A stretch of DNA of 64,000 bases from Eledone cirrhosa (Eukaryota): NCBI GenBank assembly GCA_964016885.1, contig OZ024740.1, positions 166,594,001-166,658,000 of the forward strand, given 5' to 3'. Both the position numbers and the translations under genes were made by a program. This document shows, piece after piece, positions 10,160 to 48,538 of the stretch. The notes beneath the pieces were generated by a model. The model was not told where the DNA came from. It was given only the letters and a program-made list of their open reading frames with translations, and searched no databases. The stretch's first letter is position 1, and the number at the start of each line of letters is the position of its first letter.

Positions 10160-11367
10160 CAATTAACATCGCGATCGAATGTAACTTTTTAGCCCAGCCA
10201 ATGATCTAAAATGTCTTGCACAGAGTCGGCAACCAAAACATTCACTGGGAATAGCCGGCTGTGGTTGGAGTTCGTGTAATTTTGCATGTCGGTTGAGGCA
10301 TATTGCTGATTTACATTCTCTACCACATGCTTGGCAAGCATGATGAGTAGCATCTCCAACAGCAGCCTGGTAGTCAACCAATGGTCTTACTTTATGACTG
10401 AGAAGATGACTTTTGAGTCCAGCTTTGCTTAGGCAGAGTCTTGCACAGACGCTACATGTCAGCACCATAGGAGGACCTTCGCCGTCTGGAAGTGCAACAG
10501 CAATGCCCTTCCTCACATCCCGCTTTACTTTCTCGTATGCGATTCGAGATGCCTCAAAGGCAACTTTCCGTCATATACAGTCTTTCTCCATTTAATACGA
10601 TCAGCATCAATATTTTCCCATGTATCAGCAGAGATGTTAGCGTCTTTCAAAGAGGCTTTCAAGGAATCCTTATACCTCTTTTTTGGTTTATGTGGCGGTC
10701 GTTTTCCTAACTCTCCATGAAAGAGTTGTTTTGGTATTCTAGAATCCTTCATCCTGGCAAGGTGACCACTCCAACGGAGTCGTTGCTTAAGCACAAGAGC
10801 TTCTATACTGTGACACATAGAGCTTTCCAAAATCTCGACATCACTGATGTGGACCCTCCAGTGAACACCATGGATCCGTCTGAGACACATCTGATGGAAA
10901 TGCTCTAATTGCTTAAGGTGGTGTCGATATGAGACCCAGATCTCGCAGGCATAAAGAAGAGAAGAGAGCACACATGCCTTGTACACCTTTACCTTTGTCT
11001 TCTTGGATATGTCTCGCCGACCCCTGAGTCGCCTTTCTAGCTTTCCGAAAGCATCACTTGCTTTCCTAATCCTGACTGGGATTTCACTATCAAGGTTGCT
11101 GTATCGATTGATAGTGCTTCCAAAGTAGACAAACTGATCAAACACTCCATGTCGTTTACCATAAAAATAGATATTTGGTTCACTGTACTGCTTACCAGGG
11201 GCAGGTTGGTACATGACGACGGTTTTCTTGAGACTGACAGTCAATCCTAGGGTAGTGCAACCATCAGATAATGCATTCAAAATGTGCTGCATATCACTCT
11301 CTGTGTGCGCTACAAGATCGCAATCACCTGCATACCAGAGGTCTCTTATGATTGAAGTAAATACTTT

Positions 11368-11372
<5 letters not shown>
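10160..11372 (-). mobile_element. RTE-clade LINE, 5'-truncated 3' end
   Basis: IRDLWYAGDCDL (decayed YADD), GLTVSLKKTVVM, FVYFGSTI, TKVKVYKACVLSSLLYACEIW, RLRWSGHLARMKDSRIPKQLFHGEL, KRYKDSLKASL; C2H2 fingers at the C-terminus. Confidence 0.92.
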
Positions 11373-11423
<51 letters not shown>

Positions 11424-12469
11424 ATATACAGAGAAAGGCAGGGTGCCTGTGAGAGAGAGGGGAGAGAAATAGAGGAGTATACAGGGAGACAGTCAGACAG
11501 ATGGATAGAGAATTCATTGGTTTAGAACTGGTTATGTACACCTAAACCAGCTATTTTAAAAGGTAGGTTGTGTAGATATATCTCATTGTTTTCAACAGTT
11601 TTCCAGTTAATATATGCTGCACAAACATAGATGAAAAGCGGAGTCATGAATACAAATTATAAACCAATATAAAAAAAGGGCAAAACCTAATCATCATAAT
11701 AATAGATATAAAAGTACAATAATACAATTCTGTTAATGTCTTATATTACTCTCTCGATCTTTGATTAATATCAAATATCGGTTCTGAAAACCCTCGCATG
11801 TTTCAGTGAAATCTAGTTCACCTGTTATAAAAAGCCGATCGATGAGAATTTAGTGTATTGCCATTTCCTGCGGTGAAGCTTGTTGAGTTCAAAGAGCATT
11901 CAGTACTATGTCAAAGAAAGAGAAATAATAAAGTATTGAACGGTAAAAGGTTGTGTGAGGAGGACAGAGATAGTAAGAAGCTGAGTAAGAGATTCAGAGT
12001 GAATGAGAGAAATAGAAAAAAGGAGGAAGAGTTGGCAAATACGTGTATGAGTGTTATCAATTTAGATTACAAAAATGAATGGTAAGGAATGATGAAAGAA
12101 ATATTAAGAGTGCTAGGAAGTGAAAGGGGTGCTTCACTTCCAAGATTTAAACTAAAAAACACATAGCAAACCATAGAGAGATCAATGGATCTACTCACAC
12201 TGATATAAATTCGCACATGCATACATACTTACATACATGCATAAATGCATACGTACATACATATATACATGCATGCATAGATACATACATGCATGCATAC
12301 ATACATACATACATGCATACATACATACATACATGATGGTTGCCTCCTCGTTATCGAGAATGGCCATTGCACGATATACCATTATTAATAATAATTAATT
12401 AATTCTATCGTACAATGCCTGTGCGTGAAGATATTTTTTTTAAATGAGGAAAAAATGTGCACTGAGCCA

Positions 12470-40230: not shown

Positions 40231-40519
40231 TATATATATATATATTGTTATACTTGGGGAGGGTCATATTTGTGTAATATTGCCAGAATTAATAACAGAA
40301 CACACTCACTGTTTGGTTGGTTTTCGCTTCTCGCTGTCTTTTATATCTGCGATCTAACTTACTCGGTCCTCAATGTTGCCATTGACTGACCGACGGTCAA
40401 AAATAATACAGATACAATATAGACACAAACACATATATATAGTTTACATAATTTACATAAATCTTTCGTTGCACATCTGCAACATCGTCAGTGGTGTTAT
40501 ATTTTTTTGTTTTCTGTTA

Positions 40520-43500
40520 TATAAAAACTACAATAACAACAGAACAAATCCGCTCCTTAAAACACAGTGTTTCCTCCAAAACATACACAACAAACATATC
40601 AAAACAAGAAAATAATTTATTATTGAACAAAACACAAGCCGAACGACTAAAACACACAATAACAGTTAATATGAAAAGAACAACATACACAAAAGTCAAC
40701 GCACTCTACAGATAGAAACGCATTAACGGTAAGGAAATCCGAAATCTTATCACAGCAAACGAGAGAGATAACTTCATGAGCGTCATCCGACGCGAAACGA
40801 AATACGCTCGAAACTAATGCAATAGGCACTTCAAGAAGAAATTAGAATGGATGAATAAGAAAAAACTACAAGAAAGGAAAATCGAATATTCTCAAAAATA
40901 CCCAGATAACATTGACAATATCCGTATGACTGATGTAAAACTACCGGAAGAATTCACCAAAGACCAATCAGTGAACAAGAACAACAAATCCTACGGTTAC
41001 CACCAAAATTTGCCATCTACAAAAAGATTAACCCTATGGAGTGCAAAACGGAGCTGGAAAAGTGTTTCACAAAAATACGTTGGAATGCAAAGGTAAACAA
41101 CAACAACAACAATAATAACGGTAGTAGTAATATAAACAAAAACTCTTGGTATAGAAATAACAGCCATAACCATAACAATGGCAGGAAAGTGAGAAATAGT
41201 GATAATGGTAATAATACTAGCGATAGACAGAACAACAACAACCACAATAATAATAATAATAGAAACATTAACCACAGACACAGCAACAGCGACCACAGTA
41301 GTAATAACGGTAACAATACGAACAACAATAACAATAACCACAGTGGTAATAATGGAAATAGTTCATGTAGCAACATCAACAAAAACAAGAAACATAATAA
41401 TAGTAACAACCACAATGGTAGAAATAACAGTAACAACAACAACAATAACGGTGAAGTAAACAACAATACATCTAGCAATCATAACAATAATAATAATGCT
41501 AATGATAGAAACAACAACAACCACCCTGATAACAACAATAGCAACACACACAACTATGACGATAGATATAATGACAACCCCTTAGAGAAACTAGTTTTCA
41601 ACCCAGCTGACAAAACATATAAGATGAGTAATATCTATCCTACGAGGTTACCCTTTAATAAAAGAGTTTGCATACCACAGCAAATAGATGACGAGACGGA
41701 GGCACAGTTCACCATAGCTAGAAATAAGATTAGATAAGTAGTAGACAGGTATACTAAGAGACAGAGCAGACCAGAGGCCCAACAACTTGAGAGGAAACCT
41801 GTAGAAGGCTTGGTTAGCCTCAAGCAGCGCACAAGGGATGGTGAGGTAGTGTGTCTACCCACAGATAAGTCTGGTAGGATGTCAATAGATAGCATGCCGA
41901 ACTACATCGAGGCTATGCAACCCCACATCACCAACACGAACAAAGTTGCACAACAAACACACGATGGGAGAGAAAAAATCCTCAACGCTCACATGATGAT
42001 GTGGACTGACATCCTAAAGCCAAGCAGACGCACTGCCAACAACTTCCAGGCGTCTAACAATGGCATACCACCCTTGTATGGGCTCCGCAAAGACCACAAG
42101 ACAGTCGACGACCCGACAACAGGACCACCAACAAGACCCGTATGCGGAGCTAATATAGCTAGCAACTACAGGATCTCCTACTTCCTCTCAATGGTTATAC
42201 GCCCCATAATCAAGATGTCCCCAGATATATGTGAAAGTACAGAGGACCTCCTCAGCAGAATCAGTGAGTGCAACAAAAACAGGAGCCTATCCAACTGCAT
42301 AATAGGCAGTATGGATGTGGTGTCACTGTACCAATCCATTAACATTGATTTTGCTGTGAAAAGATGTGTGGAGATGATCATTGAGAGTGAGGTGGAGTTC
42401 TGCGACGTCGACACAGACGAACTGGGCCTCCTACTTAGACTTACCTACGACACTGACTACCTAGACAGCTATGACCTTAGATGTTTCTGCCCTAGTAGAC
42501 CTACAAGAGGTAGACACCCCACCATAACCTCAATGGCAAACAAGACTCCCATGGGAAGGTGGATTGGGTGGGCCAAAGCTATACGGACCCCCCAAAACAA
42601 TGATCAGGTAAGAAAAATGGTCGCACATGCAATAGGGGCTAGTATCAAAACTACCCTAAAGGGCCACATATTTAAGTTCAATGAGAAAATCTACACCCAA
42701 AATTAGGGAGCAGCCATCGGCGTCAGCATAGCTGGTGATGTTGCCAACCTTTTCATGGTATGGTGGGAAAGGAGACTTAAAGATCTCCTTAATGAAAGCT
42801 CCATAGACCTCATCATGTACTCTCGTTATGTAGACGATATCAATATAGTTATAAGAACACCCTCATTAGAGAGCACTAACAAGTTTGATTTAGAACGTAG
42901 CACGATGGAAAGCATCCAGCAGATAGCTAATTCCATACACCAGAGTATAACTGTAACTATCGACTTCCCTTCCAAACACCCTAACAATAGACTACCTGTA
43001 TTAGACACAGAACTCTGGATTAACACTATAGACGAGAGAGCCCAAATTCTCCACTCACACTATGCTAAACCCATGGCCTCCAAATACCTGATACTCAAAA
43101 ACTCAGCAATGTCCAGTAGTGCTAAGTTTAATATTCTAATCGCAGATTTGGTACGAGTGATGAAGAATGTGTCCAGCATGTGCGACCCAACAGAATTGGA
43201 AAGACACATCCAACACTTCATCAACCGCATGCAGTTTTCTGGCTACAACCAAAGAGACAGAGTCAGAGTATACGAAGGAGCCATGGAAAAGTATAAGACC
43301 CTCATAGAACTGGACATGAAAGGAATTTGCCCATTATACAGGAGCAGATCATGGAATAGCTTAGATAGGGCTAGACATAAGATAGGGAAGGCCACATCAT
43401 GGTACGACAACCAGAGATATCAGAGTGTCATGTTTGTGGACGCCACCCCTGGAGGGAAATTAGCTAACCAGTGTAGAAAGGCCCTGAGAAAGACCCACTT

Positions 43501-43983
43501 AAAAATAAAGGTGGCAGAAAAGCCAGGAACCACCATAAAATCCCTGATCAGCAAAACCTACCCTTTTAAGAAAACCCACTGTACCAATAGGAAATGTATC
43601 ATATGTAAGGTGAACCCCCGGATAAACTGTAAAACTAGAAACGTAGTCTATAGCATAAGATGTACAGAGGGCACTTGCAGAAACATGACAACAACATACA
43701 TAGGTGACACAGCTCGTAGCATAGGTGAAAGGATAGACCAACACTGGGGGAACTAAAAGGACGAAAAAACGGGTCAGTACTATACGAACATGCTAGACAA
43801 TAACATGACGGTAACATAGACAACATAGAAATTAGAATAATATCTAAACATAGGAATGACCCAGCAGATAGGCAAATCAGAGAGGCCAGTGAAATAGAAA
43901 TTAGAAGACCAAAGCTAAACAGAAAGAATGAGTGGAACAACAACAACACCCAAACAAACAACACTGACCTAAGAGAAGTATAA
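40520..43983 (+). pseudogene. PLE polyprotein (RT + Cys linker + GIY-YIG) with several stops and a frameshift
   Basis: LPPKFA, LPTDKSG, PPLYGLRKDHK, PTRPVC, GSMDVVSLY, QN*GAAIG, YSRYVDDI, LPVLD, CTNRKCIIC..C, VVYSIRC..YIGDTARSIGER, LNRKNEW. Confidence 0.92.
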
Positions 43984-44249
43984 ATAAGTAAATAAAATAA
44001 AATAAAATAAGATAAATAAATACATACACAAGCACAATAACAACAAGCACATAAACACACACTAGTCACCCAGCAAACACAACACTATACACACTAGTCA
44101 CACAGCAAACATAACACTATACACACACGCAAACGCATGCGCAAAGAAGACAAAATAAAATAAACAAACAAGCAAATAAATAAATAAATATATAGACAGA
44201 CTGAATAAAAAATGGCCTAGACATACAACACAACAGGAGGAAAAAATAT

Positions 44250-44320
44250 AACACCACTGACGATGTTGCAGATGTGCAACGAAAGATTTATGTAAATTAT
44301 GTAAACTATATATATGTGTT
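44250..44320 (+). ncRNA. Hammerhead-like motif in the PLE pLTR
   Basis: CTGACGA-T-GTTGCA-GATG-TGCAAC-GAAAG: core and stem II are clear; stems I/III are weak. Copies on the minus strand at about 40463-40491 and 14305-14333. Confidence 0.5.
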
Positions 44321-44543
44321 TGTGTCTATATTGTATCTGTATTATTTTTGACCGTCGGTCAGTCAATGGCAACATTGAAGACCGAGTAAGTTAGATCGCA
44401 GATATAAAAGACAGCGAGAAGCGAAAACCAACCAAACAGTGTGTGTGTTCTGTTATTAATTCTGGCAATATTACACAAATATGACCCTCCCCGAGTATAA
44501 CAATATTTGTTTCGACACACGGCTTCATATAAAAACCTCGCTA

Positions 44544-44583
<40 letters not shown>

Positions 44584-46002
44584 ACATGTGTGTGTGTGTG
44601 GGGGGGGGGGGGGGTTAGATGTTACTTTGCAGATATAAATTTACATATCTGTCGAGATGTAGAAAAAGACTCTGCCGCCGTCATCTTGACTGTCCCCTGA
44701 GCTGATCGATATCGAAACTATTCTAATATATAAATAAAATGTGTACATTTGCTGCAACACTGACTTTGATTTTATTTAATCTATTTACACTTTGCACACT
44801 ACAGCCGTCTCAACTCTGTAATACAACCCACAACAGATGGAACTCGTAACAGCACTGAGTGCTTCAAACGAGGCATCGCCTGTAACTGTAGTTACCTACC
44901 TAACTTTGGACAGTCATCAAATTGGAAATCTTTCGTCACATTTGATATATGAAGTCTGCTCTATAATCTGATAATGTCGATGAAGTCTCGATGAATTGCT
45001 CGATGAATTGCTTTCCTGTAGGAGGTTTAGTTCTTCAGGCTCTCAGGTAAAGTTTGGTTGACAAAATCTGTGAGAAAAAAAAAACAGCGCAGTTGTTTTT
45101 TTTAGAGGTTTAATAATTTGATGTGCCATCACCTGTTAAAAATTACGTTGTTATATGAGGGATATTTTACTGTTAGTTATAGCATACTGATTACCAAGTA
45201 AGTTGCCCACTTATAGCTGAAAAGGTTTGATTCAGTACACTAGGTGCACAACGGTCATTCGAGATGCGGTGTTGTATCTTATTGCGTCACAAATCTATAA
45301 TGCCTGAATTCGATTATAAGTCTCGGTAGTAACCTGTATTTTTCGATTTGAAAGAATATTTCAAATGTGAATATTTCATATCTCAGGGGTGATGTTTATT
45401 CAATAATTTAAAGGCAACTGCATGCTACACAGAACAATTGAAAATATATCATATAAAATGTTTGTAACATTGCTTATAACATATCTCATATATGATGGCA
45501 TTTACACCACAGTAACATCTATGCATAATAAATGAATCAAAGTCTGGTACTAACCCTCCCATAGAGGGTTGATAATAGTTGTTTATTTTTGTTGTGAACA
45601 AACCTATTTATTAGTGATAGGAAAACAATCAGTAAAATGCATCCCAAAATAATAGTGATATTTATTTTATCAACCCTATGCAGTGAACTTTGACACTGAT
45701 AGCATTTAAATTCACTTCGCATTATTATAATAATATTATTATGCTTTGTATATATTGATTGTCAAATGTTGAGGCTGACACCGTTGTGAGATCATGACTA
45801 CTGTTACTTCTCCAGTAACTTATATAAAGTGACAACAAACAGGCAATACCTCCGAGTCATTGTATCACCCCAAGTTAACTTAATCCTTTTCTTTTCTTAC
45901 ACACGGCTTAACATAGAATAGAAACACAATATCATCGCATCCGTTATACATTTTTTTATTATATTTCTGATTTTGGCTGCATACAATCTTCCATTGGCAT
46001 TT

Positions 46003-46070
<68 letters not shown>

Positions 46071-46076
46071 CTATTC

Positions 46077-46933
46077 TCCTCTATGTTGAGAAAAAAATTT
46101 GGTCGTTCCGACTGCTGCTAGTGACAGTGGTGGCCGTTTGACCTACCTCCCTCTGCCTCTATCTTTACTTCGGCCCTTGAAAAAATTGATTCCACTTCAT
46201 TTACTCTCATCTCGGGAACAGTTTTGGATAGCGTTAGTTCGTAATTTAAATTCAAGAATTTTATATTCTTCGAATGAAAAGAACATTCTGACGAGAATCT
46301 TTCTTTGCAACGAAGGCCGTATGGTCTCCGTTTATTTTTGAGATTCGAAACCGATTCGGTAAAGGTAACTATAGTAAGTCAAGTCAATTTTTTAAAATTT
46401 ATTTTGAAACTTTTTCATTATTTGCTAAACCTGATTATATATGTTCTGGCTCGTTAATTTATTAACCTGCCATTGAACCACATTGGCATATGGTTGGACA
46501 ATACATGTGTCCCTTAGCGCTTTGTGCGTGTAGGAACACATATCCTATTATTAATATACTCCTCTATTTTGAGAAAAAAATTTGGTCGTTCCGACTGCTG
46601 CTAGTGATAGTGGTGACCGTTTGACCTACCTCCCTCTGCCTCTATCTTTACTTCGGCCCTTGAAAAAAATTGATTCCACTTCATTTACTCTCATCTCGGG
46701 AACAGTTTTGGATAGCGCTAGTTCGTAAGTTCGTAATTTAAGTTCAAGAATTTTATATTCTTCGAATGAAAAGAATCTTCTGACGAGAATCTTTCTTTGC
46801 AACGAAGGCCGTATGGTCTCCGTTTATTTTTGAGATTCGAAACCGATTCGGTAAAGGTAACTATAGTAAGTAAAGTCAATTTTTTAAAATTTATTTTGAA
46901 ACTTTTTCATTATTTGCTAAACCTGATTATATA
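46077..46933 (+). repeat. Tandem ~490-bp non-coding unit (about 1.75 copies), one HHR per unit
   Basis: 46077-46443 is repeated at 46559-46933 at high identity; flanked by (CA)n/(TA)n. Confidence 0.9.
46775..46858 (+). ncRNA. Type I hammerhead ribozyme with a large stem-II loop
   Basis: ATCTT-CTGACGA-GAATCT-[40 nt]-AGATTC-GAAA-CCG-ATT-CGG-TA|AAGGT. Second copy at 46283-46366 has a weaker stem I. Confidence 0.75.
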
Positions 46934-46942
46934 TATATATAT

Positions 46943-47929
46943 AAACGGAAAAAATGAAACGAAATGTCATTTCTCACTCGTAGTACGGGTGTTACTTAAA
47001 TATAAGTATGTATACGTACATACACATATGTATACAGTCGTACAGTAGTATGTATGTATATATACATACATGCACACATATATATATATGTACGTATGGA
47101 TTCACCGATCATTTATTATAATGCTCGGTGTGTTTGTAAACAGACATCCCGAATTAAGCCGTACAGTGTCTAGCAACCATCGTTGCTCATTTGTTCAACA
47201 CTGACAAAGGAACGCTGTACTGGTTTCAAGCTTATTAGCTATCGTCAACCATCTGGCAAGAAGGTATACGTTGCTGACCATAGCTAATAAGCTTGAAACT
47301 AGTACAGCGTTCCTTTGTCAGTGTTGAACAAATGAGCAACGATGGTTGCTAGACACAGTACGGCTTAATTCGGGATGTTTGTTTACAAACACACCGAGCA
47401 TTATAATAAATGTTCGGTGAATCCATACGTACATATATATATGCGTGCATATATATATATACATACTATTGTATGTCTGTATACATATATGTATGTGCGT
47501 ATACATACTTATATTTAAGTAACAGCCGTACTAAGAGTGAGAAATAAAATTTCGTTTCATTTTTTCCGTTTATCGTTTTCGATACCCTGGCCGATTAACT
47601 CACTCGATATGCAAATTAGGCTGCTCAGCCGTTAATATGCATAAGGAAAGTATATACTTTCAGACGTTCAACCATCTGGCAGGAAGGTATACGTTGCTGA
47701 CGATAGCTAATAAGCTTGAAACTAGTACAGCGTTCCTTTATCAATGTTGATCAAATGAGCAATGATGGTTGCTAGACACTGTACGGCTTAATTCGGGATG
47801 TTTGTTTACAAACACACCGAGTATTATAATAAATGTTCGGTGAATCCATACATACATATATATATATGTGTGCATGAATGTATATATATATACATACTAC
47901 TGTACGTCTGTATACATATATGTATGTAC

Positions 47930-47930
<1 letters not shown>
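46943..47930 (+). mobile_element. Non-coding PLE/retrozyme-like element: inverted partial unit plus tandem 423-bp units
   Basis: 46943-47247 is the reverse complement of about 47275-47572. Direct units start at 47246 and 47669 (CAACCATCTGGCA). HHR in each unit. Confidence 0.85.
47691..47733 (+). ncRNA. Minimal type I hammerhead ribozyme
   Basis: ACGTTG-CTGACGA-T-AGCT-AATA-AGCT-T-GAAAC-TA-GTA|CAGCGT, with palindromic ACTAGT stem III. The copy at 47268-47310 has CTGACCA (G8C). Confidence 0.85.
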
Positions 47931-48006
<76 letters not shown>

Positions 48007-48007
<1 letters not shown>

Positions 48008-48160
48008 CGAAGGAAATGTGGTAAGGAACCAGGTGGACCATAACGCACTAAAGTACTCAATACTTAGGGTAGTAGAGTGGGTAATAGGAACAAGTAAGAC
48101 CCCGTCGGCTGAGCTCAAGCCGTTTCGACTTGAGCTCAGCCGTCGGGGTCTTACTTGTTC
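48007..48160 (-). mobile_element. Fold-back micro-PLE insertion
   Basis: Minus-strand relative of 14938-15108, with inverted arm GAACAAGTAAGACCCCG..GAGCTCAAG / CTTGAGCTC..CGGGGTCTTACTTGTTC. Confidence 0.72.
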
Positions 48161-48191
<31 letters not shown>

Positions 48192-48196
48192 CACAA

Positions 48197-48487
48197 GGAG
48201 GCACATGGCTTAGTGGTTAGAGCATTGGCCTTGCAATCGAAAGTTTGTGAGTTCAATTCTCAGACCGGGCAATGTGTTGTTTCCTTGAGCAAGACACTTT
48301 ATTTCACATTGCTCCAGTTTACTCATCTGTAGAGTGGTCGTGCAGGTGCCACGGCAAAAAGAACCCAACACTCACTGTAAATGAGGTTGGTGTTAGGAAG
48401 GGCATCCCGCTGTAGAAATCAAGCCAGAATCAGTTCCCGTCTTACCCTTGCAAGCAGGGAAAAGCGTACGTAAAATAATGATGATGT

Positions 48488-48490
<3 letters not shown>
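48197..48490 (+). mobile_element. tRNA-derived SINE, family B
   Basis: A-box TGGCTTAGTGG, B-box GAGTTCAATTCT, CCTTGAGCAAGACACTTT, tail ..GTTAGGAAGGGCATCC..(ATG)n. Confidence 0.85.

Positions 48491-48538
<48 letters not shown>

What the first reader, a model, noticed from the sequence alone, without database searches (positions are those of the whole stretch)
46077..46933. A second, unrelated tandem unit with a hammerhead carrying a 40-nt stem-II loop
Seen: an unrelated ~490-bp tandem lies directly next to the 423-nt element. Both copies keep a perfect core (CUGACGA, GAAA, GUA), a 6-bp stem II and a 4-bp stem III; the cleavage sites (46361, 46853) are 492 nt apart. The 40-nt stem-II loop is unusually large and identical in both copies, so compact HHR descriptors could miss it. 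Inference: the loop may form a tertiary contact or pseudoknot, or be an extra domain.
Basis: partly seen in the sequence, partly recalled or inferred. Interest (0 to 1): 0.75.

Follow-up and report, generated by a model that had tools for sequence, protein, structure and literature searches.

The report
Long-armed hammerhead ribozyme in jumping repeat
This tandem repeat is one insertion of a small non-coding jumping element, present in thousands of copies, whose hammerhead ribozyme motif has a conserved folded rod of about 50 bases where a short hairpin normally sits; it is predicted to cut its own RNA, and the standard RNA-family library misses it.

Summary
Window 46069-46934 is 1.8 tandem copies of a 483-nt non-coding unit. 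Each copy has a complete type I hammerhead core, and the predicted cut sites (46361, 46853) are 492 nt apart. The "40-nt loop" is not a loop. It folds into a rod: basal helix, pyrimidine-rich internal loop, then a 9-11-bp distal hairpin. At least five related repeat families of the same 3-Gb genome (47-72% identical overall) keep this design, with compensatory changes in stems I and II and the distal hairpin. The unit is a dispersed retroelement: each family gave over 2,000 first-look candidates. Insertions have fixed 3' ends inside (TA)n microsatellites, random 5' ends, and tandem-plus-inverted layouts, which is the signature of Penelope-like elements. Such elements are very abundant in this genome. 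This fits a non-LTR "retrozyme". Rfam finds no hammerhead here even at E = 10. Cleavage, expression and the autonomous partner are not shown, and no RNA run was available. Array 5' ends cluster weakly at the predicted cut site. A flank-loop pseudoknot is not supported. Verdict: a real, probably functional hammerhead, a new structural variant in a known kind of element. Interest is moderate.

The parts
46006..46068 (.). Upstream flank: (AC)n then (AT)n microsatellite into which the element is inserted
46069..46551 (+). Copy 1, one full 483-nt unit. Its 5' end lies in the unit's TA-rich boundary.
46552..46934 (+). Copy 2, 383 nt. It carries an 8-nt duplication and ends at the family's main 3' terminus, 81 nt after the cut site.
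46283..46366 (+). Hammerhead of copy 1: stem I 46283-46287/46362-46366 (one A.G mismatch), core CUGACGA 46288-46294, helix II 46295-46346, GAA 46347-46349, stem III 46350-46360, A17 46361
   Evidence: 136.8 bits with model R1
46295..46346 (+). Extended helix II of copy 1: basal helix 46295-46301/46340-46346, internal loop 46302-46308/46333-46339, distal hairpin 46309-46332
46775..46858 (+). Hammerhead of copy 2, same layout shifted by 492. Stem I has one U.G pair. Predicted cut between 46853 and 46854.
   Evidence: (139.1 bits)
46437..46442 (+). Internal ATATAT of copy 1, the site that forms the 3' end of most insertions (likely priming site)
46929..46943 (+). 3' terminus ATATAT of the insertion, running into the (TA)n flank

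Best explanation
Window 46069-46934 is one insertion of a 483-nt non-coding retroelement family that carries a type I hammerhead motif with a long, covarying helix II; the motif is predicted to self-cleave multimeric transcripts, and the element is likely copied into (TA)n microsatellites by the enzymes of a Penelope-like element (a non-LTR 'retrozyme'). Shown: the tandem; the complete core; the rod-like helix II and its covariation across families; the dispersed high-copy family; the fixed 3' ends in (TA)n, scattered 5' ends and tandem or inverted layouts; and the abundance of RT plus GIY-YIG elements in the genome. Inferred from published retrozyme and PLE work: tandem transcripts are cut by the hammerhead into unit-length RNAs. 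Families C-E have palindromic or very short stem III and would act as dimers, while family A has a 4-bp stem III and would act as a monomer. The unit RNAs would be circularised by a host ligase. A PLE endonuclease would nick (TA)n, the nicked end would anneal to one of two UA-rich sites 81 or about 195 nt after the cut site, and the reverse transcriptase would copy a circular or multimeric template for more than one unit. The helix II rod most likely stabilises the ribozyme fold, or is a second functional handle of the RNA.
For: Core and helices. Structure: the helix II inserts of five families all fold as basal helix, internal loop and distal hairpin (-13.2 to -20.3 kcal/mol). Covariation: in a model-fitted alignment of 128 copies, 92.0% of cells pair against 73.6% in shuffles (0 of 500 reach it) and 31-49% when partners are slid. 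The covariation score is 0.500 against 0.183 in shuffles and at most 0.099 slid, and 19 of 25 pairs change on both sides. In a structure-blind MAFFT alignment of 124 of these copies, 90.2% pair against 74.1%, with score 0.462 against 0.178 (0 of 500) and at most 0.134 slid. Examples from the 96 of 128 copies that the script parsed: at pair 10.2/11.2, family D has C-G in 20 copies, U-A in 9 and U.G in 1; family C has U-A in most, A-U in 5 and single changes in 4. The core is intact in 115 of 124 copies. Whole units of families A and D/E are only 47-48% identical, yet they keep this design. Dispersed family: 2,257, 2,657, 2,615, 2,378 and 2,352 first-look candidates for families A-E, of which 39-40 were scored each and all matched, on many contigs. 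Insertion anatomy: of 65 A/B arrays, 38 end at unit 372-374 and 20 at 489-491, 51 are followed at once by (TA)3 or more, and the 5' starts fall on 56 different coordinates. The same two 3' ends occur in C, D and E, and inverted 5'-truncated copies are frequent. PLEs: 10,596 GIY-YIG candidates, with 150 of 150 scored over the cut-off; the endonuclease is C-terminal in 30 of 30 loci; RT motifs lie upstream of it. Cut site: 15 of 170 array 5' ends lie within 8 nt of the predicted cut against 6.0 expected (P=0.0014), the fullest of 28 bins. Literature: non-LTR retrozymes and their circular RNAs (PMC7229834, passages and section 14); the PLE origin of retrozymes (bioRxiv 10.64898/2026.07.22.740005, abstract and first part of Results); PLE tandem/inverted insertions and (TA)n targets (PMC8557442, passages and section 11).
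Against: There is no RNA evidence: no listed run is on record as RNA. The four contig runs that were laid show only repeat DNA. Cleavage is untested. Rfam's hammerhead models do not match. The 121-nt hammerhead region is no more stable than shuffles (z -0.59), and its minimum-energy fold does not form stem I. The full monomer is also not significantly structured (z -1.52, with 8 of 100 shuffles folding as well), unlike the 'highly self-paired' published retrozyme RNAs. In one search, two pair-counting measures do not exceed shuffles: pairs with a double change (81 of 500 shuffles reach the value) and further pair types (341 of 500). Copies are related by descent, so cell counts overstate the number of independent events. 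The window's copy 1 has a stem I mismatch. No autonomous element sharing sequence with the unit was found in 36 PLE loci. The clustering of 5' ends is modest (about 0.04 after correcting for 28 bins) and could reflect reverse transcriptase stalling at the folded ribozyme. Families C and D have a U.U at the base of stem II. That change is tolerated according to PMC3088659 (passages) but weakens the helix.
Confidence: 0.7

Rival explanations
1. The arrays are ordinary truncated tails (pseudo-LTRs) of a full-length protein-coding Penelope-like element, not a separate non-autonomous element.
For: PLE insertions are typically 5'-truncated, tandem and inverted, and carry a hammerhead near the 3' end (PMC8557442 and PMC4209133, passages). 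PLE 3' ends lie within 1.5 kb of the arrays in several held loci. An abundant Neptune-like PLE family has a hammerhead-like module with the same stem I, stem III and cut context as families A and C.
Against: In the A/B loci where DNA upstream of unit position 1 is covered, it is the end of another unit. Arrays reach three or more consecutive units with no open reading frame. The unit has no BLAST similarity to 36 PLE loci. Model R1 finds the long-arm hammerhead in those PLE loci only as a separate family D array behind a (TA)n tract.
Confidence: 0.1
2. The hammerhead-like fold is conserved for another reason, for example as the structure that the reverse transcriptase recognises near the 3' end, and it no longer cleaves.
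For: The motif always lies 81-86 nt from the main 3' end, where retroelement RTs usually bind their template. PLE hammerheads cleave poorly in vitro (PMC4209133, passages). Naiad PLEs proliferate without canonical hammerheads (PMC8557442, passages). Stem III and the core never vary, which says nothing about catalysis.
Against: All catalytic core letters are kept in 115 of 124 copies across families that are 47% identical elsewhere. A mere protein-binding hairpin would not need CUGANGA, GAAA and UH in their exact places. Array 5' ends are enriched at the predicted cut site.
Confidence: 0.15
3. The locus is a local satellite-like tandem duplication made by unequal crossing-over, and the hammerhead core is there by chance.
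For: Only 1.8 copies are present at this locus. The two copies are 95-98% identical, no closer than unrelated family members.
Against: There are thousands of dispersed short arrays with the same fixed 3' ends in (TA)n. The descriptor hit 0 of 300 simulated windows. The helices covary across families.
Confidence: 0.02

Closest known systems
Non-LTR (metazoan) retrozymes (Cervera and de la Pena 2020, PMC7229834; Li, Clavereau and Pollet 2026, bioRxiv 10.64898/2026.07.22.740005)
   Same: Short, AT-rich, non-coding tandem units (here 459-492 nt and 36% GC; published ranges are 150-450 and 51-972 bp). One type I hammerhead per unit. Dispersed in thousands of copies. Found together with Penelope-like elements.
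   Different: Published examples have a short helix II (about 4 bp plus loop) with loop 1-loop 2 contacts, whereas here helix II is a 50-53-nt rod. Circular RNAs and cleavage were shown for coral, mussel and axolotl but not here. The strict (TA)n target and the two fixed 3' ends are not described in the passages I read.
Hammerheads of Hydra-clade Penelope-like elements, e.g. Hydra-1_oBim (Craig et al. 2021, PMC8557442, section 11 and rows of supplementary Files S1 and S2)
   Same: Type I order, CUGAAGA core, 7-bp stem II, near-palindromic stem III of the ACCN-N-NGGU kind, position near the element's 3' end, and insertion preference for (TA)n.
   Different: The listed Hydra-1_oBim motif has an 8-nt loop 2 (22 nt between the core strands) against 50-53 nt here (39 in family F). 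Hydra elements encode RT and endonuclease, and this unit encodes nothing. I did not compare the sequences with tools.
Minimal hammerheads of PLE pseudo-LTRs (Cervera and de la Pena 2014, PMC4209133, passages)
   Same: Helix II larger than usual (6-8 bp), short helix I (4-5 bp) without a clear loop 1, a palindromic or very short helix III that suggests dimeric action (families C-E here), and a bulged base in helix II (family E).
   Different: No internal loop plus distal hairpin on helix II is described there. Family A here has a stable 4-bp stem III.
Rfam Hammerhead_1 (RF00163)
   Same: Same core and strand order. The same genome holds canonical copies that pass its threshold (18 of 74 scored).
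   Different: The long-arm motifs do not reach E<=10 (window) or E<=0.05 (sister families).
Discontinuous hammerhead of mammalian Clec2 genes, and the 'HHR_half_core' cases in Naiad PLEs
   Same: Both are precedents for core strands separated by long inserts: several hundred nt in Clec2 (PMC6765202, passage) and 35-50 nt in eight Naiad cases (PMC8557442, Methods passage).
   Different: The Clec2 motif is not in a repeat, and the passage I read does not say which helix carries the insert. The Naiad cases were listed only as half cores, without a fold.

Membership tests
Hammerhead ribozyme, type I | Core letters C3 U4 G5 A6 N7 G8 A9, G12 A13 A14, A15.1-U16.1, H17 not G, in the order that leaves helix I open | tested here: met
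   Both window copies; 115 of 124 family copies
Hammerhead ribozyme, type I | Three helices around the core, supported by compensatory changes | tested here: met
   Pairs with changes on both sides: stem I 4 of 5 and stem II 6 of 7; 3 of 5 and 5 of 7 in the MAFFT alignment. Stem III is conserved and hardly varies.
Hammerhead ribozyme, type I | Tertiary contact between helix I and helix II (loop-loop or pseudoknot) | tested here: inconclusive
   There is no consistent flank-insert complementarity beyond composition. Non-Watson-Crick contacts cannot be tested with these tools.
Hammerhead ribozyme, type I | Match to the curated Rfam models at gathering score | tested here: not met
   This is a detection criterion, and the 40-nt insert explains the miss. 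I could not rescan with the insert removed, because changed sequences may not be entered.
Hammerhead ribozyme, type I | Site-specific self-cleavage | not testable with these tools
   Only indirect evidence: array 5' ends cluster at the predicted site (15 of 170 against 6.0 expected).
Non-LTR retrozyme | Short non-coding tandem units, each with a type I hammerhead, low GC, no LTR | tested here: met
   GC 36%; no tRNA gene; arrays of up to three or more units without an ORF
Non-LTR retrozyme | Expressed as unit-length linear and circular RNAs | not testable with these tools
   No run on record as RNA
Non-LTR retrozyme | Highly self-paired monomer RNA | tested here: inconclusive
   Monomer minimum free energy -107.6 kcal/mol, z -1.52, with 8 of 100 shuffles folding as well
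Non-LTR retrozyme | Co-occurrence with autonomous Penelope-like elements | tested here: met
PLE-mobilised element | Insertion signature: fixed 3' end, variable 5' truncation, partial tandems, an inverted 5'-truncated copy, microsatellite target | tested here: met
PLE-mobilised element | An autonomous partner that shares terminal sequence | tested here: not met
   No BLAST similarity to 36 PLE loci. Only the motif-level likeness of a Neptune-like family's hammerhead-like module was seen. The sample is tiny compared with 10,596 candidates.

The most novel reading that the evidence does not exclude
The helix II rod (pyrimidine-rich internal loop plus distal hairpin) is a functional module in its own right. 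It would define a distinct 'long-arm' class of animal hammerheads in which the classical loop 1-loop 2 brace is replaced. The rod would either clamp the active fold or serve as the handle by which a (TA)n-targeting Penelope-like reverse transcriptase selects cleaved or circular template RNA. The same design may underlie the 'half-core' hits reported in PLEs said to lack hammerheads.
Probability: 0.3. Interest if true: 0.65.

Novelty: new variant of a known kind. Interest (0 to 1): 0.5.

Why it matters
Hammerheads are found mainly with compact descriptors and Rfam models. Here a whole superfamily, which probably exceeds ten thousand copies in one animal genome, is invisible to those tools because helix II carries a conserved 40-nt elaboration. 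If the motif cleaves, three things follow. Censuses of ribozymes in retroelements are incomplete. The rod becomes a natural case for asking how a hammerhead is braced without the usual loop-loop contact. And the two fixed UA-rich 3' ends in (TA)n give a concrete, testable picture of how retrozyme RNAs are primed for reverse transcription.

Tried and rejected
RNA evidence: no RNA holder was listed. Four contig runs of unknown kind were laid. They gave fragmented repeat contigs and no information on ends.
I replaced it with DNA 'walks' from diverged copies and by running model R1 over held loci.
Pseudoknot between the stem I flanks and the insert: not supported.
Autonomous partner:
- BLAST of the unit against 30 + 6 PLE loci gave nothing.
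- An ORF next to a family D array (L200) proved to be a separate 5'-truncated Neptune-like PLE behind a (TA)n tract.
- Scanning 12 window ORFs against Pfam gave only a weak RT hit elsewhere in the window.
- The protein-atlas look-up of a PLE ORF gave PLE-type clusters but no useful taxon.
Thermodynamic z-scores are not significant.
The bacterial promoter/terminator scan is irrelevant here.
The depth peak at 46418-46528 suggested a more abundant shared segment. A search with that segment returned only family copies (1,257 candidates), so I read the peak as collapse of conserved words.
Literature search for long or extended helix/stem II hammerheads returned only 6-8-bp cases. Lunse et al. 2016 (PMC5785218) is not held, so it may describe longer stem II variants that I could not see.
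My first regex parse failed on family A/B rows through a non-greedy artefact (32 of 128 unparsed). The alignment-based counts do not depend on it.

Full report
OBSERVATION. Window 46069-46934 holds 1.8 head-to-tail copies of a non-coding unit. The direct repeats are 46069-46185/46552-46668 (96%), 46180-46247/46664-46731 (97%) and 46232-46442/46724-46934 (98%), with spacings of 483, 484 and 492. The unit is 483 nt. Copy 2 carries an 8-nt duplication upstream of its ribozyme, which is why the two predicted cut sites are 492 nt apart. Each copy reads stem I / CUGACGA / GAAUCU / 40 nt / AGAUUC / GAAA / CCG-AUU-CGG / UA | AAGGU, with the cores starting at 46288 and 46780. A descriptor that allows long stem II inserts hit the window twice, at copy 2 and at the neighbouring element's hammerhead. 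It hit none of 300 simulated windows. Copy 1 fails that descriptor only because its stem I has an A.G mismatch.

RFAM. No hammerhead family matches the window at gathering score. None matches at E<=10 over 42000-48500 or over 46230-46400. Four loci carrying the sister families give none at E<=0.05. The same genome does hold canonical type I hammerheads that pass RF00163: 18 of 74 scored candidates. The miss is therefore a property of this motif.

WHAT THE '40-NT LOOP' IS. Folded alone, the sequence between the two core strands forms three parts: a basal helix of 6-7 bp, a symmetric internal loop made mostly of U and C (7x7 in this family), and a distal hairpin of 9 bp. Starting from diverged copies found beside family members, I walked to further families in the same genome:
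- B, about 90% identical to A.
- C, about 70% identical.
- D and E, 47-48% identical to A over the whole unit.
- F, seen as one inverted pair.
- A single shorter variant in L189.
All of these keep the same three-part helix II.

COVARIATION. An alignment of 128 copies fitted to my model gives 92.0% paired cells against 73.6% in shuffles (0 of 500 reach it) and 31-49% when partners are slid. The covariation score is 0.500 against 0.183 in shuffles and at most 0.099 slid. Nineteen of 25 pairs change on both sides: 4 of 5 in stem I, 6 of 7 in stem II, and 8 of 9 in the distal hairpin. I then made a structure-blind MAFFT alignment of 124 of these copies. The four dropped rows had internal deletions or were truncated. 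It gives 90.2% against 74.1%, and 0.462 against 0.178 (0 of 500) with at most 0.134 slid. In that alignment two pair-counting measures are not above shuffles (81 of 500 and 341 of 500). Clear single events, from the 96 of 128 copies that the script parsed: at pair 10.2/11.2, family D has C-G in 20 copies, U-A in 9 and U.G in 1. Family C has U-A in most copies, A-U in 5 and single changes in 4. Stem III and the core letters are nearly invariant, and 115 of 124 copies have an intact core. Families C and D have U.U at the base of stem II, a variant reported to be tolerated (PMC3088659, passages). Family E has a bulged A in helix II, as in some published long-helix-II hammerheads (PMC4209133 and PMC13725137, passages).

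A pseudoknot or pairing between the purine-rich stem I flanks and the pyrimidine-rich loop is not supported.

WHAT THE UNIT IS. It is a dispersed retroelement, not a local satellite. Searches of the 3.0-Gb genome gave 2,257, 2,657, 2,615, 2,378 and 2,352 first-look candidates for families A-E. Only 39-40 were scored each time, and all matched, on many contigs. These figures are rough lower bounds.

The insertions share a common anatomy. Of 65 de-duplicated A/B arrays, 38 end at unit 372-374 and 20 at 489-491. Both sites are UA-rich, and they lie 81 and 197 nt after the cut site. Fifty-one arrays are followed at once by (TA)3 or more. The 5' starts fall on 56 different coordinates. Families C, D and E have the same two 3' ends, at +82/+193, +86/+191 and +85/+189. 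Many loci have an inverted 5'-truncated copy abutting the direct one, and arrays reach three or more units. The unit is 36% GC and contains no tRNA gene.

This is the insertion signature described for Penelope-like elements: partial tandems, an inverted 5'-truncated copy and microsatellite targets, with (TA)n for the Neptune, Naiad and Hydra clades (PMC8557442, passages and section 11). The unit itself fits the non-LTR retrozymes (PMC7229834, passages and section 14; bioRxiv 10.64898/2026.07.22.740005, abstract and first part of Results).

PENELOPE-LIKE ELEMENTS IN THIS GENOME. GIY-YIG gave 10,596 candidates, and all 150 scored passed the cut-off. The endonuclease is C-terminal in 30 of 30 loci. 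Six long copies have RT motifs upstream of it. One family has the GxKF, DKG and CX4CxxC-linker features of Neptune-like elements, and its 5'-truncated copies sit in (TA)n.

I did not find the autonomous partner. The unit has no BLAST similarity to 36 PLE loci, which is a tiny sample. The Neptune-like family does carry, near its 3' end, a hammerhead-like module with the same stem I (CCUU/AAGG), the same stem III type and the same GGUA|AAGG context as families A and C. Its first core strand reads UUGAAAA. This is a lead, not a demonstration.

DOES IT CUT? This is not shown. No run on record as RNA was available, and the contigs laid were uninformative. One indirect sign exists: 15 of 170 array 5' ends lie within 8 nt of the predicted cut site against 6.0 expected (Poisson P=0.0014). 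That is the fullest of 28 bins, or roughly 0.04 after correcting for the bins. This is what cDNA made on cleaved RNA would leave, but a reverse transcriptase stalling at the folded ribozyme would give the same pattern. Thermodynamic z-scores are unremarkable.

Families C-E have palindromic or very short stem III (ACCGCGGU, ACCGUCGGU). By analogy with newt, axolotl and PLE hammerheads they would act as dimers in tandem transcripts (PMC4209133 and PMC7229834, passages). Family A gained AUU in the stem III loop, giving a 4-bp helix that could act alone.

COMPARISON AND NOVELTY. Published animal hammerheads have a helix II of about 4 bp, and the 'large' PLE variants have 6-8 bp capped by a small loop (PMC4209133 and PMC13725137, passages). 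The Hydra-1_oBim motif listed in File S2 of PMC8557442 has a 7-bp stem II and an 8-nt loop. My full-text searches for long or extended helix/stem II hammerheads found nothing longer. Lunse et al. 2016 was not held, and most supplements were not read. Craig et al. list eight 'HHR_half_core' cases with core halves 35-50 nt apart, without proposing a fold (PMC8557442, Methods passage), and these may be the same design.

Earlier agents of this scan, working on other windows of the same genome, also noted long-stem-II hammerheads, and one noted a Hydra-type PLE carrying one. I treat these as leads. My own calls confirm the long-arm design and its covariation. I did not test the Hydra-partner claim.

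VERDICT. This is a new structural variant of a known ribozyme inside a known kind of mobile element.

Noticed in passing
window 46944-48006: The neighbouring ~423-nt element lies in the same (TA)n tract in an inverted-plus-tandem layout (arms 46997-47247/47698-47948 are 93% complementary; direct spacing 423). It carries a minimal type I hammerhead at 47697 with a 6-bp stem I and a palindromic ACUAGU stem III. The sister copy near 47254 reads CTGACCA (G8 changed to C).
   Followed up: partly
L075:6090-6140, and 30 other places in held loci: Two abundant RT plus C-terminal GIY-YIG PLE families carry hammerhead-like modules ending GAAACCGGTA near their 3' ends. In the Neptune-like family the first core strand is UUGAAAA, with U at position 3 and A at position 8 where C3 and G8 normally stand. 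That would swap the C3-G8 pair for U-A (the pairing of C3 with G8 is recalled, not from a call). Whether this is an active core variant is open.
   Followed up: partly
window 40242-44506: 266-nt inverted repeats, 99% complementary, flank 3.7 kb that holds three consecutive open frames (40934-43756, + strand) with no Pfam match. This looks like a young terminal-inverted-repeat element.
   Followed up: no
window 48090-48263: A 70-nt perfect palindrome (48090-48160; falsely matched by a plastid 3'UTR model) is followed, after another (TA)n, by a tRNA-like head at 48206-48263 (Rfam tRNA 26.5 bits, below threshold). This is probably a tRNA-derived SINE.
   Followed up: no
L200:1145-1190 and L075:6280-6500: (TA)n tracts act as nests. 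Long-arm retrozyme arrays and 5'-truncated Neptune-like PLE copies sit back to back in the same microsatellite at two independent loci.
   Followed up: partly
window 10525-11541 (- strand): An open frame with a weak reverse-transcriptase match (RVT_1, E=0.006, below the cut-off), with further open frames nearby on the same strand. This is probably a decayed retroelement.
   Followed up: no
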